A stretch of 34,951 nucleotides of DNA. Origin: a virus (taxonomy: Duplodnaviria > Heunggongvirae > Uroviricota > Caudoviricetes). Within the stretch, counting starts at the first letter, position 1; each line of letters begins with the position of its first letter. Below are positions 23,082 to 34,951 of the stretch, one piece after another. Under the pieces are notes generated by a model. The model saw only the letters and a list, made by a program, of their open reading frames with translations, searched no databases and was not told where the DNA came from. The DNA lies in IMG/VR virus record IMGVR_UViG_2740892423_000023, positions 1 to 34,951 of that record. One strand, given 5' to 3'. The position numbers were made by a program, and so were the translations under genes.

Positions 23082-23108
23082 GGGTACTGCTGGGGGTGTT
23101 CAGCACCC
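23082..23108 (-). promoter_or_regulatory. Conserved 27-bp late-region motif upstream of lysis genes
   Basis: Minus-strand GGGTGCTGAACACCCCCAGCAGTACCC; 23 of 27 positions identical to the site upstream of I. Confidence 0.45.
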
Positions 23109-23133
23109 CCGGCAGGTTGATTAGCTGGATGGG

Positions 23134-23448: not shown

Positions 23449-23916
23449 TTAATCAAAAAGCCCCACCTGGGTGGGGCTTTTCAGCGAAGTCTGTTTTTGT
23501 CGTCGGTGTATCAGTTGCCATGCGTACCGGTCTGAAATGCCGTAACGGGGACAGAGCAGTGCCAGCGCCTGCCGGTGTGAGCATCCGCCTTTTACATGCT
23601 GCTGTAAATCAGCCATAAAACGGGTGTTACGCAAGGCACGTAACGCATGATCGCAACGGGGAATGTAAAACGGTGCGCCGCCAAGAAAACGGATCAGTTT
23701 GTTGATTTCGTCTTCGGTCAGCACGTCATGTAACAGGGCATGGACACCGCCGGTTCGTTCGGCGTGTGCGCCGGTTTTACCGCTTAACGTCACGCCACCA
23801 AAAGAACGGATTAACCGGGTCAGGGCGGGGAAGCCAATCACGCTAATCAGTTGCTGCACGGAATCAGGCAACAGTGCCTGCGCATCGCGAAGATCTGTTT
23901 CACTGAAGGTCTGCAT
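23449..23916 (-). CDS. Mor/C-family transcriptional activator (only copy in window)
   Basis: 155-aa ORF with GGAGA RBS; C-terminal region ...FYIPRCDHALRALRN...RYGISDRYAWQLIHRR resembles the Mor/C DNA-binding region. Confidence 0.75.
   Translation of the reverse strand: MQTFSETDLRDAQALLPDSVQQLISVIGFPALTRLIRSFGGVTLSGKTGAHAERTGGVHALLHDVLTEDEINKLIRFLGGAPFYIPRCDHALRALRNTRFMADLQQHVKGGCSHRQALALLCPRYGISDRYAWQLIHRRQKQTSLKSPTQVGLFD
23455..23482 (-). terminator. Intrinsic terminator, bidirectional-type, overlapping last codons of the Mor/C gene
   Basis: AAAAAGCCCCACC-TG-GGTGGGGCTTTT; minus-strand hairpin followed by UUUUUGAUUAA; Mor stop at 23449. Confidence 0.7.
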
Positions 23917-23945: not shown

Positions 23946-23951
23946 ATTATA
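23946..23951 (-). promoter_or_regulatory. Consensus -10 hexamer (TATAAT on minus strand) upstream of the Mor/C gene
   Basis: Minus-strand GGCTATAATAACAG about 30 nt upstream of ATG 23916; weak -35 (TGTACA) 16-17 bp upstream. Confidence 0.4.
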
Positions 23952-23979
23952 GCCATACATGATCGCCTGTACAGACCAC

Positions 23980-24005
23980 AAAAAAGCCCCTGCAAGGCAG
24001 GGGCT
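23980..24005 (-). terminator. Intrinsic terminator between GemA and Mor/C genes
   Basis: Minus-strand AGCCCCUG-CCUUG-CAGGGGCU (8-bp stem) followed by UUUUUUGUGG. Confidence 0.65.
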
Positions 24006-24011
24006 GATTCT

Positions 24012-24434
24012 TTATTGTTTATGTGCTGCTCTGGCTCGTTTTCTGGCGTCTTTTGTCAGCGCCACCATCACCCCGAAAAGCTGTTCATCCGTCAGCCATT
24101 CGATCACATGTTGCTTATACATGTGAGATGCCAGTCCTTCTGCATACGCCCAGGAACGACCGGCATCAGCCAGCAACGCTTCAATTTTGGATAATACCGA
24201 TTTTCTGCTCATTGCAACACGGGGGCGGCGACCTTTACCGACGGGCGCTTTGCGCGGGAATCCCTGTTCGTGCATATATTCCCGGATGATGCGCAGTTCA
24301 TCGAGGTTGCAGCGTGTGGTGCTGGTTTTACCGGTCAGGCGGGCCAGCGTCTGGCGATAAAGGGCATCATCCCACCCCAGATACGCCTGACCGGCTTTAA
24401 TGGCTCCGATCATCTTTTTCAGCATGTTTGTTAT
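24012..24434 (-). CDS. gemA: GemA-like regulatory protein (DUF1018-like)
   Basis: ORF 24012-24551; start refined to ATG 24434 (MLKKMIGAIKAGQAYLGWDDALYRQTLARLTGK), characteristic N-terminal pattern; position before Mor. Confidence 0.65.
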   Translation of the reverse strand: MTNMLKKMIGAIKAGQAYLGWDDALYRQTLARLTGKTSTTRCNLDELRIIREYMHEQGFPRKAPVGKGRRPRVAMSRKSVLSKIEALLADAGRSWAYAEGLASHMYKQHVIEWLTDEQLFGVMVALTKDARKRARAAHKQ

Positions 24435-24675
24435 CCTCAAAACGCACGGTAAAACGTGAAACACCAATCCCTGACAGAAACGCGGCGGCACGGTCAAGAG
24501 ACAGCCACGTCTTGTAATCGCCACGGCGTTCCTGTAGAAAATAGGACACACCAGCGCGGCGATTCACAGCGAATAGATGATACACACCACCGAACCGCTG
24601 CACGACGAACTCATCCACGCCACCGCTTTCAGCCTGTTGCCGGAAGGCTGCCATTCCGATTTGTTCAATCTTCAT
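24397..24675 (-). CDS. Hypothetical protein (92 aa), possible DNA-binding protein
   Basis: ORF 24397-24711; ATG 24675 (MKIEQIGMAAFRQQ); no SD; preceded by palindromic hairpins. Confidence 0.45.
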   Translation of the reverse strand: MKIEQIGMAAFRQQAESGGVDEFVVQRFGGVYHLFAVNRRAGVSYFLQERRGDYKTWLSLDRAAAFLSGIGVSRFTVRFEDNKHAEKDDRSH

Positions 24676-24698
24676 AATGACCAAAACACTACTTTTGG

Positions 24699-24724
24699 CA
24701 GACCAAAACATATGTTTTGGTCTG
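24699..24724 (-). promoter_or_regulatory. 26-bp perfect palindrome upstream of the 92-aa gene
   Basis: CAGACCAAAACATATGTTTTGGTCTG; a second related inverted repeat CCAAAAC-N5-TTTTGG at 24681-24698 abuts the start codon. Confidence 0.55.
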
Positions 24725-24742
24725 TTATTGGTTATTATTTAA

Positions 24743-24925
24743 TTACTTTGCGTTAGTGTGATTCTTCCAGCGGTTTTGCGCCGCGCTGGGCTTTTTGCAA
24801 CAGCTGTGCCCCATCACCCCGCAACACCCCGTCAACCTCACTCGTCTGTTACTAATCCTCAACCATCGCCAGATCCCAACACCGTTTCTGCGAGCTAACA
24901 GAATTTTTGCCTTACGATTTTTCAT
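24743..24925 (-). CDS. Small basic Cys-rich ORF (60 aa), hypothetical
   Basis: AGGAGAG RBS 7 nt before ATG; ATGA overlap with preceding small ORF; composition atypical. Confidence 0.25.
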   Translation of the reverse strand: MKNRKAKILLARRNGVGIWRWLRISNRRVRLTGCCGVMGHSCCKKPSAAQNRWKNHTNAK

Positions 24926-25095
24926 CGTTTTGCTCTCCTGCGTTTCTTTGCTGCTCGTCTCGCCGCCGCAATGCCTGTACGGCGTTTCGGTGCCGGGATG
25001 ATGCTGTCAGCCATCAGGACATGCGGCTTTGCAATTAGCGCAGAAGCCCAAAATCGAGTCGGATACGGTAACAAGCCGATACATGCCACACGCAT
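24922..25095 (-). CDS. Small basic ORF (about 57 aa), hypothetical
   Basis: Hand translation MRVACIGLLPYPTRFW...RRAAKKRRRAKR; GGAGGTGA SD formed by last codons of upstream gene; TAATG start overlap. Confidence 0.25.
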   Translation of the reverse strand: MRVACIGLLPYPTRFWASALIAKPHVLMADSIIPAPKRRTGIAAARRAAKKRRRAKR

Positions 25096-25484
25096 TACTC
25101 ACCTCCCTTACCCTGAAGCATGGCGGCGCAGCAGGCGTTCCATGAAATTTCCTGAAGGGAACGACGAATCTGTGTGCTGCATATACTCCTCCCTGACTCC
25201 TGGCTGTTAAACCATGTTTCAAATTCCGGCACCACCGTCGCTGGCGGGGCAGCGTAGAGTGGAATGCCTCTCCCTCCATAAGAAAATTCGTTGCGAGCGT
25301 TATACTCACGACCATCTGCGTCATCACGCATCCATGCCACCGGCTCTGCTTCCAGCGATGCCAGCGCGATACGAAACACATTGGCAAGCAGGCTGTTTGA
25401 AGATTGGTTATCGTGCGCCGGGTCGCTCAGGAAACCAGTGATGAATGATTTAATCTCCGCTTTTTCTCTGGTTATAGTGGTCAT
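25095..25484 (-). CDS. Hypothetical protein (129 aa)
   Basis: ORF 25095-25565; start refined to ATG 25484 (MTTITREKAEIKS) with AGGAG RBS, just after upstream stop. Confidence 0.5.
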   Translation of the reverse strand: MTTITREKAEIKSFITGFLSDPAHDNQSSNSLLANVFRIALASLEAEPVAWMRDDADGREYNARNEFSYGGRGIPLYAAPPATVVPEFETWFNSQESGRSICSTQIRRSLQEISWNACCAAMLQGKGGE

Positions 25485-25485
25485 A

Positions 25486-26076
25486 TCACTCTCCTTTGAT
25501 GCGAATGCCTGCGGCACGTAGCACATTAACTTCCACGATGCGCACAGTTGGTTTGTACATCTCAATTGCTGTCAGCCAGTCAGCGCCAGTCATGCGCTTT
25601 TCTGCATCGCCATTAGTCCACTTAACCGGTACACCAATAGCCTTCATCGCGATTTCTATTTCCCCGGCAATGGCGCTTTTTCCGCAACCAGTAAAACCAG
25701 ATACAACGACAAGAACTTCGCCTTTGGCTGGTTTTATTTCCCGTGCTTCCAGTTCTGCTATGCGCTTCTCTGCGGCTTCCAGCTTCTTGTAAAGAGCATC
25801 CCAACTTGTCGAGTTATCCATAACCAGCTTTGTAACCCGCTCTTCGCGTGATTTGTAATACTCCAGTTCATCCAGCAGTGCCAGCACGGTAGCCGGATTG
25901 GCTGCTGCTATGAATCGCTTATTGGCGCGATTATCTGGTCCTGAGCATGATGCTATGTAGTAATTTGCGTTCAGTCCGGCATCAGCAATTACCCCATAGT
26001 AATCATCAGAACACCATTCGCCTGGTGTTGCATTTTCTGCCGCCATTCGCAGTGCCTGATAGTTAACTTCACTCAC
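25486..26076 (-). CDS. Ead/Ea22-like protein
   Basis: 196-aa ORF, GTG start with AGGAGG RBS; N-terminal ...ALRMAAENATPGEW... typical of Ea22-like proteins of lambdoid phages. Confidence 0.6.
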   Translation of the reverse strand: MSEVNYQALRMAAENATPGEWCSDDYYGVIADAGLNANYYIASCSGPDNRANKRFIAAANPATVLALLDELEYYKSREERVTKLVMDNSTSWDALYKKLEAAEKRIAELEAREIKPAKGEVLVVVSGFTGCGKSAIAGEIEIAMKAIGVPVKWTNGDAEKRMTGADWLTAIEMYKPTVRIVEVNVLRAAGIRIKGE

Positions 26077-27947: not shown

Positions 27948-28130
27948 TCAGCATCCTGAATTCTGAATTACGCGACTTCCGGCACGGCCTTCAGGAGCGT
28001 GGGGAGCTCGTTCTGGCTGCGGCGCTGAATGAACATCTGCTGTTGATTGAGAACTGGTCGCAAGACGATTAAAACAAACGATTGTCAGATTAATTTCGCG
28101 GGCGAATTTTTTTTGCTTAGCGATATTCAT
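27948..28130 (-). CDS. Small ORF (60 aa), doubtful
   Basis: GAGGAAG RBS 9 nt before ATG 28130, directly after repeat copy A; product low-complexity. Confidence 0.25.
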   Translation of the reverse strand: MNIAKQKKFAREINLTIVCFNRLATSSQSTADVHSAPQPERAPHAPEGRAGSRVIQNSGC

Positions 28131-28146
28131 AAATAAACTTCCTCAG

Positions 28147-28205
28147 ATTCAGGCGTAAGCCAGCCCCGGCGGGTTTACGCCATATACAAATAAAATTAAA
28201 AACAG
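28147..28205 (-). repeat. Repeat copy A: 35-bp GC-rich palindromic core plus A/T-rich tail
   Basis: attcaggcgtaagccagccccggcgggtttacgcc at 28147-28181, identical to 28772-28806; outer arms GGCGTAA/TTACGCC. Confidence 0.8.
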
Positions 28206-28210
28206 ACTTA

Positions 28211-28762
28211 TTAACTACGACATTCAGCTTTCCGGTAATGACGGTCAACAGACTTTACGAACGCCTTCACATCACGGGAAATCGAATCCAGCGGATAATA
28301 TTCATTCAGCAGTTCCATTCCACTGAATCGAATCTGAAAAAAATCAGGCTTATCTTTATATGACTCCATCAGGTCAATAAACCGCAACTGACGCGGGAGG
28401 GATTCCTGCACGCCTGAAATAGTGAGCAAATCACCTTCAAGAATGTCCCGGAGGTCTTCCATACCCTCCCTACATGACTGCATGGATATTCTTGTCAGTA
28501 TGTTGCGTGTCGCGAGGTACAGTGCCACCGTGTCATTTGCCATCATGGCGAACAAATCCCCCTGAATATAAGCCCCCTTACTGGCCATAGCATTCCCGGC
28601 AATCTGGGCATTAAGTACCACATCCATAAAACTACCGGGTCCTCCCAGACGTCCCAGCAATGATGACGCCCATAACGTTACATTGGTTAACTTCTCAGAT
28701 GAACGGGTAGCAAAACCTTCAGGAGTAACAATAAAATCCCAGACTTTATCTTTCATATACAA
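28211..28762 (-). CDS. Hypothetical protein (183 aa), repeat-flanked cargo gene
   Basis: AAGGGGA RBS; no family recognised; lower GC than flanks; bracketed by repeat copies A and B. Confidence 0.6.
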   Translation of the reverse strand: MYMKDKVWDFIVTPEGFATRSSEKLTNVTLWASSLLGRLGGPGSFMDVVLNAQIAGNAMASKGAYIQGDLFAMMANDTVALYLATRNILTRISMQSCREGMEDLRDILEGDLLTISGVQESLPRQLRFIDLMESYKDKPDFFQIRFSGMELLNEYYPLDSISRDVKAFVKSVDRHYRKAECRS

Positions 28763-34372: not shown

Positions 34373-34951
34373 ATGAAACAAGAATGGGTTGCCGCAAAAG
34401 ACCTGGTAGGGCTTCATGGTTTACCTGCCACAATTCAGGGAATTCACCAAAAAGCCAAAAGGGGCGGATGGCGCAAAGAGAAAAGAATTACACCTGGTGT
34501 GAAGGGACATCAGGTATACTTCTACTTACCTGATTTGCCTGAAAAAATACGCTGCTCCTTGGTGTCGAAAGACGGAGAAACTCCAGTGAGGAATGATTTA
34601 AACAAAGGGTTGATATCAATACTGGAAATGACATCCGCAGAAGATCAATTCAATCTTTTTCGCGCTTTGTGTGAATTTGGCATCAAAGGAGTCCTAGAAC
34701 ACCTACAACAACCCACCAGGCAAGCTACGCAGGCCGACAGCGACCAGGACGAACAGGAGAATGCCATCAGAAGCCTAAACATCAGGGAATCGCTTAAAGA
34801 CGTTATATGTATGGCTCTAGATGGTAATGAAGAAACCGACAAAGAGATTTTGCGACGCATCGAATCTCGTGCACGGGCTGGGTCGCCAGGTGGTCAGACC
34901 GTTGCCACGCCGGAGCAAGAAACGAAGCCTGTAAGCAAAAAATCAGCATGA
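34373..34951 (+). CDS. Mu c-like repressor
   Basis: 192-aa ORF with AAGGGGG RBS; N-terminus LVGLHGLPATIQGIHQKAKRGGW parallels the transposase N-terminal DNA-binding domain; divergent from ner. Confidence 0.75.
   Translation: MKQEWVAAKDLVGLHGLPATIQGIHQKAKRGGWRKEKRITPGVKGHQVYFYLPDLPEKIRCSLVSKDGETPVRNDLNKGLISILEMTSAEDQFNLFRALCEFGIKGVLEHLQQPTRQATQADSDQDEQENAIRSLNIRESLKDVICMALDGNEETDKEILRRIESRARAGSPGGQTVATPEQETKPVSKKSA

What the first reader, a model, noticed from the sequence alone, without database searches (positions are those of the whole stretch)
24679..24724. 26-bp perfect palindrome and related inverted repeat immediately upstream of the gene preceding gemA
CAGACCAAAACATATGTTTTGGTCTG (24699-24724) is a perfect 26-bp palindrome. 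A second element, CCAAAAC-N5-TTTTGG (24681-24698), abuts the ATG at 24675, which has no SD. The shared arms allow alternative pairings in the mRNA, so this may be a translational operator or attenuator-like RNA switch, or alternatively a DNA operator for a dimeric regulator controlling the 92-aa/GemA/Mor segment.
Basis: seen in the sequence. Interest (0 to 1): 0.5.

Follow-up and report, generated by a model that had tools for sequence, protein, structure and literature searches.

The report
Tandem palindromic operator before gemA unit
A conserved 46-base pair of back-to-back palindromes sits directly in front of a small unknown gene and gemA in an E. coli Mu-like prophage; it looks like an ordinary but uncharacterised control site (protein-binding operator and/or mRNA hairpins) for that gene pair.

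Summary
CAGACCAAAACATATGTTTTGGTCTG (24699-24724) is a perfect 26-bp palindrome, the longest in the window (reached in 1 of 200 simulations). It abuts a degenerate second copy (24679-24698) exactly 22 bp away. Together they give four alternating CCAAAA/TTTTGG half-sites and fill the whole leader of a 92-aa gene on the minus strand (ATG 24675, no SD). This gene overlaps gemA.

In E. coli relatives, sequence identity begins at or about 12 nt before the palindrome, whatever accessory genes lie upstream. Prophages whose protein is only 62-71% identical keep the half-site register (CC/GG at fixed positions, ATG 44-48 nt downstream) while the centres vary. Half of the very distant homologues of the 92-aa protein, in unrelated mobile elements, also carry a TTTG/CAAA inverted repeat upstream.

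I read it as a cis-regulatory operator tied to the 92-aa gene and probably recognised by a protein, possibly the basic, eL38-like 92-aa product itself. DNA-level control of a weak internal promoter is slightly favoured. An mRNA-level translational operator is a close rival: two isoenergetic folds, -21.0 and -21.1 kcal/mol, both bury the SD position. Control of mor is unlikely, because a strong terminator separates gemA from mor. The finding is ordinary in kind, and the element itself is uncharacterised.

The parts
24699..24724 (-). Unit 1 (P1): perfect 26-bp palindrome CAGACCAAAAC-ATAT-GTTTTGGTCTG. Half-site 1 is at 24715-24720 and half-site 2 at 24703-24708.
   Evidence: Arms are invariant in about 20 E. 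coli-type variants except for one A>G change that gives G.U in the sense RNA. The top pair shows C:G, A:T, T.G and mismatches. Four pairs have changes on both sides across the family.
24679..24698 (-). Unit 2 (P2): degenerate copy GCCAAAAG-TAGT-GTTTTGGTC. Half-site 3 is at 24693-24698 and half-site 4 at 24681-24686. Half-site 4 occupies the position where relatives have a GGA Shine-Dalgarno-like motif.
   Evidence: (D2, 22-bp spacing). The centre varies freely (TAGT, TGAT, CGAT, CAAT, TAAT) while the hexamers are invariant.
24693..24708 (.). Junction inverted repeat TTTTGG-N4-CCAAAA (half-sites 2 and 3), the best-conserved part across all lineages.
   Evidence: In one search the central helix is 93.8% paired and invariant. 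It is also present in L006, L008, L027, L028 and L035.
24728..24734 (-). Semi-conserved TAAYCAA motif (TAACCAA here) 3 nt upstream of the palindrome. It is shared by four otherwise unrelated upstream contexts. Possible readings are -10/-35-like, a T-rich tail on the antisense strand, or an AU-rich single-stranded RNA segment.
   Evidence: Sequence comparison. The function is inferred only.
24734..24762 (-). Promoter-like match ATCACA-17-AATAAT (9 of 12). It would start transcripts 2-5 nt before the palindrome. It is specific to this upstream context.
   Evidence: It is not found at the same place in contexts B and C, and 2 matches are about what shuffles give (mean 2.3).
24397..24675 (-). The 92-aa gene (phrog_7844, no Pfam family). 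The protein is basic (pI 9.2) and its predicted fold is eL38-like. It is the gene directly served by the element.
24012..24425 (-). gemA (PF06252). It overlaps the 92-aa gene by 29 nt and has its own GAGGA Shine-Dalgarno sequence. It is the last gene before the terminator.
23985..24005 (-). GC-rich hairpin plus T-run that ends the 92-aa/gemA unit and insulates mor.

Best explanation
The element is a tandem operator. It consists of two 22-bp palindromic units, giving four alternating CCAAAA/TTTTGG half-sites two helical turns apart. These units make up the whole leader of the 92-aa gene at the distal end of the early region of an E. coli Mu-like prophage. I propose that a sequence-specific dimeric protein binds the DNA here and limits expression of the 92-aa/gemA unit. 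The most likely binder is the basic 92-aa product itself (autoregulation). It would act either by occluding a weak internal promoter whose -10 lies just upstream of, or inside, unit 1, or by blocking RNA polymerase that arrives from the early promoter. The transcript of the same sequence necessarily forms 5'-proximal hairpins that bury the position of the missing Shine-Dalgarno sequence, so a second layer of control on the mRNA is likely. What is shown: the element exists, is non-random, is conserved in register, is tied to this gene family, and marks the boundary of the conserved module. What is inferred: that a protein binds it, which protein that is, that binding is to DNA rather than RNA, and that an internal promoter exists.
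For: (1) Half-site sequence and spacing are conserved with no insertions or deletions over 44 nt in prophages whose protein is 62-71% identical (L006, L008, L027, L028), while the centres and flanks diverge. The 22-bp phasing equals two helical turns. (2) In the same register the RNA folds of distant relatives are weak (-0.9 to -8.5 kcal/mol), so sequence rather than stability is what is kept. (3) In E. coli relatives there are at least four unrelated upstream contexts. Identity begins at the palindrome or at the TAAYCAA motif about 12 nt before it, and BLAST joints fall exactly on its first base. (4) Four of eight very distant homologues, in unrelated mobile elements, carry a TTTG/CAAA inverted repeat within 70 nt of their ATG, against 0.24 expected. 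L288 and L290 come from the same type of element, so this is about three independent cases. The protein is basic, pI 9.2. (5) In L008 a terminator-like hairpin is followed by TTAACC-16-TATATT, whose hexamers flank and overlap half-sites 1 and 2. In contexts B-D an NNTAAT hexamer sits 6-8 nt before the palindrome, and in this window there is an AATAAT match. (6) A related unit occurs in a lambdoid prophage after two terminators and before a Fic/Doc module, as one copy (L175) or two copies (L035). Copy-number variation of this kind is typical of operators. (7) Precedent: the Mu gem operon is reported to be expressed constitutively in lysogens (Paolozzi & Ghelardini 1992, as cited in PMC3820752).
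Confidence: 0.38

Rival explanations
1. Translational operator or bistable leader on the early polycistronic mRNA. In this reading the four half-sites fold either as two hairpins (P1+P2) or as one long hairpin. Both folds sequester the -11 to -6 region of an SD-less start codon and keep translation of the 92-aa gene low. An RNA-binding protein, possibly the eL38-like 92-aa product, or the choice between folds would tune it.
For: The element ends 3-5 nt before the ATG, and the ATG is at a near-constant distance (44-48 nt) in all lineages. Half-site 4 replaces the GGA Shine-Dalgarno-like motif of relatives, and its unpaired probability is 0.02. The two folds are isoenergetic (-21.0 and -21.1), and they stay within about 1 kcal/mol of each other in most E. 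coli variants. P1 shows compensatory changes: C:G>A:U in E2348/69 and A:U>U:A in L027/L028. It also shows two wobble-compatible single changes on the sense strand. Covariation exceeded all 500 shuffles. The position is operon-internal in L006, L285, L288 and L290. The protein fold resembles the RNA-binding protein eL38.
Against: Stem sequences are conserved rather than covarying. Loop lengths never change. Folds in distant relatives are marginal. There is no sense-strand bias in stability among distant relatives. Symmetric changes are also expected in a DNA palindrome. The shuffle test can be exceeded through relatedness alone, as the tool's own caveat states. Translational operators are much rarer than DNA operators.
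Confidence: 0.3
2. Protein-independent structural RNA element. Here a hairpin at the border between variable accessory genes and the conserved 92-aa/gemA module acts as a 5' stem-loop stabiliser after RNase E cleavage in the AU-rich TAAYCAA segment, as an RNase III-type processing site (the long hairpin), or as a folding insulator.
For: The stable P1 (-16.1 kcal/mol) sits exactly at the mosaic border and is preceded by an AU-rich single-stranded motif. The long form has 17 pairs over about 20 positions.
Against: The same objections apply as for the RNA rival above. In addition, the stable hairpin is confined to the E. coli lineage. An 11-17-bp A/U-rich stem is short for RNase III. No experimental data on processing were found.
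Confidence: 0.1
3. Recombination or mosaic-junction sequence with no regulatory role. The palindrome would be a hotspot or a leftover joint where accessory genes (lambdoid ead/Ea22 block, secreted-protein morons) are exchanged between Mu-like and lambdoid prophages.
For: Homology breakpoints coincide with the palindrome edge in E. coli genomes and in the lambdoid L035/L175/ArgO145 comparison. Extra genes are inserted just upstream in contexts B and C.
Against: This does not explain the conserved register up to the start codon in distant prophages that lack such mosaicism. It does not explain the TTTG/CAAA repeats next to distant homologues. A junction position is also what one expects of the first functional base of a conserved module. 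No recombinase or invertase is encoded in the prophage.
Confidence: 0.1
4. Intrinsic terminator, and possibly the 3' end of a small antisense RNA, for transcription on the window's plus strand, antisense to the early genes.
For: On the plus strand P1 is followed by a T-rich tail, and the scan scores it as terminator-like in three different contexts. The semi-conserved TAAYCAA motif reads TTGRTTA on that strand. CATAAT, a 5-of-6 -10-like hexamer, lies at 24673-24678.
Against: The T-runs are interrupted. No acceptable -35 was found and no plus-strand promoter was detected. The interior of the stem is A/U-rich. This reading does not explain unit 2 or the conserved register.
Confidence: 0.05

Closest known systems
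Tandem palindromic operators of autoregulated small phage and plasmid genes (for example the two adjacent palindromes of the P1 phd-doc promoter, or the lambdoid OR/OL sites); from general knowledge
   Same: Adjacent inverted repeats with conserved half-sites and variable centres. They are phased by whole helical turns and placed at the start of the regulated unit. Copy number varies. A related unit lies in front of a Fic/Doc module.
   Different: No binding protein has been identified, and the neighbouring protein has no classical DNA-binding fold. No convincing core promoter was found.
Autogenous translational operators (T4 gp32, gp43 and RegA targets; ribosomal-protein operators; Mu Com acting on the mom leader); from general knowledge
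   Same: Structured RNA abuts or covers the ribosome-binding region of the regulated gene. The adjacent gene encodes a small basic protein with a ribosomal-protein-like fold. Mu offers a precedent for hairpin-controlled translation.
   Different: RNA binding is untested. Stem sequence rather than structure is conserved. Folds in relatives are weak.
Mu Pm / Mor-binding dyad that doubles as the early terminator (AGCCGGttaatCCGGCTTTTTTT in Mu)
   Same: A dyad-symmetric element in the gemA-mor neighbourhood of a Mu-type early region.
   Different: Mor-type dyads in Mu and in this prophage are G+C-rich and are followed by a T-run and a -10. Examples here are 24005..23985, 23456-23481 and 23092-23110. 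The element under study is A/T-rich, has no such downstream promoter, and lies upstream of mor.
hix/gix sites of Hin/Gin DNA invertases (26 bp; half-site TTATCCAAAACC); recalled from memory
   Same: The length is 26 bp and the half-site contains CCAAAAC.
   Different: Only 7 of 12 half-site positions match. The outer TTATC that the invertase helix reads is absent. There is no partner site in the window and no invertase in the prophage.
Promoter-stem-loop cassettes (PeSL) at module borders of T4-type phages; from general knowledge
   Same: A conserved short regulatory sequence containing a stem-loop lies exactly at the border of a hypervariable accessory-gene region.
   Different: There is a single site per genome rather than a dispersed repeat family.

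Membership tests
Rho-independent terminator (sense strand, early mRNA) | G+C-rich stem-loop immediately followed by a U-run on the transcribed strand | tested here: not met
   On the minus strand P1 is followed by CCAAAAG and the long hairpin by AUUAUGAAG. The scan reports no minus-strand site here.
Rho-independent terminator (antisense, plus strand) | Stem-loop followed by at least 5 T in 8, and a transcript that needs terminating | tested here: inconclusive
   The pattern scan scores it in three contexts. However, the tails are interrupted and no plus-strand promoter was found.
Mor/C-type activator site (Mu middle/late promoters) | G+C-rich dyad centred about 43 bp upstream of a start site, with a -10 but a poor -35 | tested here: not met
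   The element is A/T-rich, and a start site 43 bp downstream would fall inside the ORF. Genuine GC-rich dyads lie elsewhere.
Mu-type c repressor / Ner operator | The same motif repeated in the c-ner intergenic control region | tested here: not met
   There is no CCAAAA/TTTTGG repeat with up to 2 mismatches, and no repeats at all, in 34600-34850.
Sigma-70 promoter with overlapping operator | -35 and -10 hexamers 16-18 bp apart, conserved among relatives, with the operator overlapping them or the start site | tested here: inconclusive
   There are 9-of-12 matches in this window and in L008 but not in contexts B and C. Weaker NNTAAT/TAAYCA motifs are semi-conserved.
Autogenous translational operator | RNA structure overlapping the ribosome-binding site | tested here: met
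   Both predicted folds pair the -11 to -6 region, with an unpaired probability of 0.02.
Autogenous translational operator | Specific binding of the encoded protein to that RNA | not testable with these tools
   Only indirect hints are available: an eL38-like fold, pI 9.2, and co-occurrence of the motif with the gene family.
Hin/Gin recombination site | 26-bp site with two TTATCNAAAACC half-sites, a partner site, and a cognate serine invertase | tested here: not met
   The length matches but only 7 of 12 half-site positions do. There is no partner and no invertase.
Any Rfam RNA family | Covariance-model score at or above the gathering threshold | tested here: not met
   The best hit is 19.8 bits against a threshold of 55.8 (Plastid-psbA-2, E 1.1), which is a chance match.
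RNase III processing site | About 20 bp of mostly continuous double-stranded RNA, cleaved by RNase III | not testable with these tools
   The long fold has 11+6 pairs around a 3x3 internal loop. Cleavage cannot be assessed with these tools.

The most novel reading that the evidence does not exclude
A rare family of small basic proteins with an eL38-like fold (11 cluster representatives among 1.8 billion proteins) forms a new autoregulatory pair with a TTTG/CAAA palindrome. In E. coli Mu-like prophages the palindrome has been duplicated into a bistable leader RNA with two isoenergetic folds. In this reading the protein reads the leader to set translation of the SD-less 92-aa gene, and indirectly of gemA, which would make it a new phage translational repressor-operator system.
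Probability: 0.15. Interest if true: 0.6.

Novelty: new member of a known kind. Interest (0 to 1): 0.35.

Why it matters
GemA and its neighbours are among the least understood conserved genes of transposable phages. In Mu the gem operon is said to be expressed even in lysogens and to alter host supercoiling and ligase phenotypes. GemA homologues were recently linked to sensitivity to the Gabija defence system (PMC12407980). A defined cis-control element in front of the gemA unit gives a concrete handle for asking when and how this unit is expressed. The element also marks the exact border at which accessory genes are swapped in these prophages. If the 92-aa protein binds it, an orphan protein family gains a function. 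Otherwise it is an ordinary operator- or hairpin-type regulatory site.

Tried and rejected
- **Mor-binding site:** rejected. Mor-type dyads in Mu and in this prophage are GC-rich and lie elsewhere.
- **c/Ner operator:** rejected. The motif is absent from the control region.
- **Sense-strand terminator or attenuator:** rejected. There is no U-run.
- **gix/hix-like invertase site:** rejected.
- **Strong gyrase site or enhancer:** rejected on position. The element is about 11 kb from the left end of a 37.5-kb prophage.
- **ATG in the palindrome centre (24711) as the true start, giving a 104-aa protein:** rejected. It is out of frame or absent in the ATGT and E2348/69 variants.
- **Small hydrophobic peptide encoded by the lambdoid copy:** rejected. 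The reading frame is closed after four codons in the single-unit version.
- **Rfam:** nothing found.
- **INPHARED phages:** no copy of the element.
- **Pattern scans of metagenomes and viral contigs:** these returned mostly chance or unrelated hits, namely coding regions and 22-bp TTATTTTGGATATCCAAAATAA arrays.
- **Homology between the 92-aa protein and proteins next to the lambdoid copy:** none.
- **Literature on TSS maps for E2348/69:** nothing usable.
- **afdb50 fold library:** unavailable.
- **Viral-contig scans for distant homologues:** these failed.

Full report
**Context.** The window is most of a roughly 37.5-kb Mu-like prophage of E. coli. It is 99.4% identical over the query to one inserted in the aga operon of strain STEC316, and all phage genes lie on the minus strand. 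Reading in the direction of transcription, the order is:
- a lambdoid-type ead/Ea22 block, ending with a 60-aa ORF (24925..24743, phrog_1380);
- the element;
- a 92-aa gene (24675..24397; phrog_7844, no Pfam family);
- gemA (24425..24012, PF06252), which overlaps the 92-aa gene by 29 nt and has its own GAGGA Shine-Dalgarno sequence;
- a strong hairpin with a T-run (24005..23985);
- a promoter-like site;
- mor (23916..23449).

**The observation.** The 26-bp perfect palindrome at 24699-24724 and the inverted repeat at 24681-24698 are both there.
- The second repeat is a degenerate direct copy of the first, displaced by exactly 22 bp.
- In mRNA sense the region reads CAG-ACCAAAAC-ATAT-GTTTTGGT-CT-GCCAAAAG-TAGT-GTTTTGGT-CATT-ATG. 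That gives four alternating half-sites, with a third inverted repeat (TTTTGG-N4-CCAAAA) across the junction.
- The palindrome is the longest in the window and was matched in only 1 of 200 simulations.
- The motif occurs nowhere else in the 35 kb, including the c/ner control region.
- There is no Shine-Dalgarno sequence before the ATG.

**Conservation in close relatives.**
- In about 20 distinct E. coli-type copies the hexamers never change, while the centres of both units vary freely.
- The pair at the top of P1 is seen as C:G, A:T (a double change in E2348/69), T.G and two mismatches. One outer A>G change gives a G.U pair in the sense RNA.
- At least four unrelated sequences lie upstream. One is the lambdoid 60-aa ORF, as in this window. 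Others are extra genes, including a 136-aa secreted protein.
- Identity starts at the palindrome, preceded only by a semi-conserved TAAYCAA motif about 12 nt earlier. BLAST alignments in other genomes begin at its first base.
- The element therefore belongs to the conserved 92-aa/gemA module and marks its upstream border.

**Conservation in distant relatives.** Prophages whose 92-aa protein is only 62-71% identical (Intestinirhabdus L006, L008, L027/L028) have otherwise unalignable intergenic DNA.
- They still keep the register without a single insertion or deletion. Taking the G of GACC as position 0, CC is at positions 2-3, GG at 18-19, CC at 24-25 and GG at 40-41, and the ATG is at 44-48.
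- The inner half-sites are the best conserved.
- The fourth half-site is GGAATGG or GGATTGG, which looks like a Shine-Dalgarno sequence, where E. coli has GTTTTGG.
- The Leminorella copies are partly degenerate.
- On a gap-free alignment of 16 distinct sequences, helix P1 has four pairs with changes on both sides, and its covariation exceeded all 500 shuffles. P2 has none, and the junction helix is invariant. The tool warns that relatedness alone can produce such a result.
- In this register the RNA folds of the distant relatives are weak (-0.9 to -8.5 kcal/mol) and show no sense-strand advantage.

**RNA folding in this window.**
- P1 alone is -16.1 kcal/mol.
- P1+P2 is -21.0 and a single long hairpin (1:4 plus 2:3) is -21.1, with an ensemble split of about 44:56.
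- In both folds the -11 to -6 region is paired, while the AUG is about 66% open.
- Most E. coli variants keep the two folds within about 1 kcal/mol of each other. E2348/69, L017 and L114 do not.

**The neighbouring protein.**
- The family is tiny: 13 clusters in the first search and 11 representatives among 1.8 billion proteins.
- The protein is basic, pI 9.2.
- The AlphaFold model has pLDDT 81 and topology beta-alpha-beta-beta-beta-alpha-beta.
- Very distant homologues (about 25-45% identity) sit in unrelated elements: integrase islands, a Yersinia plasmid-like region, and myovirus-like prophages.
- Four of eight carry a TTTG/CAAA inverted repeat within 70 nt of their start, against 0.24 expected. 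They are TCCAAAataTTTGGA, TATTTGcagccaaCAAATA, ATTTGcaggtaaCAAAT and ACATTTGaatccagCAAATGT. Two of the four come from the same type of element.
- This links the motif to the protein family and is the basis for proposing autoregulation.

**A second context.**
- A lambdoid contig (L035) has ACCAAAAGtgttGTTTTGGcttACCAAAACgatcGTTTTGGT after two terminators and about 110 nt before a 59-aa gene plus a Fic/Doc gene.
- Six E. coli genomes have a single unit at the same place.
- Homology breakpoints again fall at the element.
- No 92-aa homologue is adjacent.
- Other pattern hits were chance or unrelated arrays.

**Promoters.**
- The scan finds ATCACA-17-AATAAT ending 10 nt before the palindrome. It is specific to this context and occurs at background frequency.
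- In L008 a terminator-like hairpin is followed by TTAACC-16-TATATT, whose hexamers flank half-site 1 and overlap half-site 2.
- Contexts B-D have NNTAAT 6-8 nt before the palindrome, but with poor -35 hexamers.
- An internal promoter is therefore possible but not shown.
- The Mu gem operon is reported to be constitutively expressed in lysogens (cited in PMC3820752).
- Mu itself has an unrelated GC-rich palindrome just before gemA.

**Interpretation.**
- Four observations argue for a protein-recognised operator tied to this gene: sequence-level conservation of half-sites at fixed helical phasing, weak RNA folds in relatives, variable copy number, and the association with the protein family. 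I favour DNA-level action (0.38).
- Four other observations keep a translational operator or bistable leader as a close rival (0.30): the fixed distance to an SD-less start, the compensatory and wobble changes in P1, operon-internal positions in several relatives, and the eL38-like fold.
- Lesser rivals are a protein-independent stabiliser or processing hairpin (0.10), a mere recombination joint (0.10) and an antisense terminator (0.05).
- mor is probably outside the controlled unit because of the terminator at 24005..23985.
- Known families that were tested and excluded are the Mor dyad, c/Ner operators, sense terminators or attenuators, gix/hix sites and Rfam families.

**Verdict.** This is a real, selected, uncharacterised cis-regulatory element of an ordinary kind. 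Interest is modest and rises only if the 92-aa protein proves to be a new RNA- or DNA-binding autoregulator.

Noticed in passing
window 23946-24005: Right after gemA there is a GC-rich hairpin AGCCCCTGCcttGCAGGGGCT with a T-run, followed by TGTACA-16-TATAAT upstream of mor. The design matches Mu's Pm/Mor dyad-terminator (AGCCGGttaatCCGGCTTTTTTT), but in Mu that element lies after mor. This suggests mor here has its own, possibly Mor-dependent, promoter.
   Followed up: partly
window 23456-23481: A palindrome with 12-bp arms, AAAAGCCCCACCtgGGTGGGGCTTTT, lies at the very 3' end of mor. It is the second-longest palindrome in the window and is a likely bidirectional terminator or Mor-type dyad.
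   Followed up: no
window 23092-23110: A GC-rich dyad GGGGGTGctgaaCACCCCC lies in the 127-nt gap before the holin genes. It is a candidate Mor-dependent late (lysis) promoter site.
   Followed up: no
window 24758-25600 and beyond: A lambdoid/P1-type ead/Ea22 block, including 60-aa and 57-aa ORFs of phrog_1380 and phrog_13831, is embedded in the Mu-like early region. BLAST joints fall at 24758 and 24926. Hundreds of E. coli chromosomes and plasmids share only the 43 nt at 24758-24800.
   Followed up: partly
L035 5941-5984; L175 2500-2520: A related palindromic unit lies in a lambdoid prophage after two terminators and before a 59-aa gene plus a Fic/Doc toxin module. There are two tandem units in L035 and one in six E. 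coli genomes.
   Followed up: partly
window 15878-15902: A palindrome with 11-bp arms, CGTTTTTAAAACCCTTTTAAAAACG, lies in the late (head/tail) region.
   Followed up: no
L053, L097, L108, L112 and many other metagenome contigs: Long arrays of a 22-bp unit TTATTTTGGATATCCAAAATAA, with the same half-sites and the same 22-bp period, occur in unrelated environmental contigs. They look like iterons or satellite repeats.
   Followed up: no
window ~28023-28241 (plus strand): One annotated gene (WP_000564495.1 in STEC316) lies on the opposite strand inside the otherwise unidirectional early region, next to the DUF2786 gene.
   Followed up: no
L030 4194-4213 (phage Mu 8193-8212): Mu has its own unrelated GC-rich palindrome GGCGGTGTTG/CAGCACCGCC about 20 nt before the gemA start, between the divergent gp15 and gemA genes.
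   Followed up: no
L284-L291: Distant homologues of the 92-aa protein occur outside Mu-like phages: in integrase islands, in a Yersinia region next to an Hha-family gene, and in myovirus-like prophages next to a major-capsid-like gene. The protein is therefore a free-standing mobile-element gene and not a Mu-specific one.
   Followed up: partly
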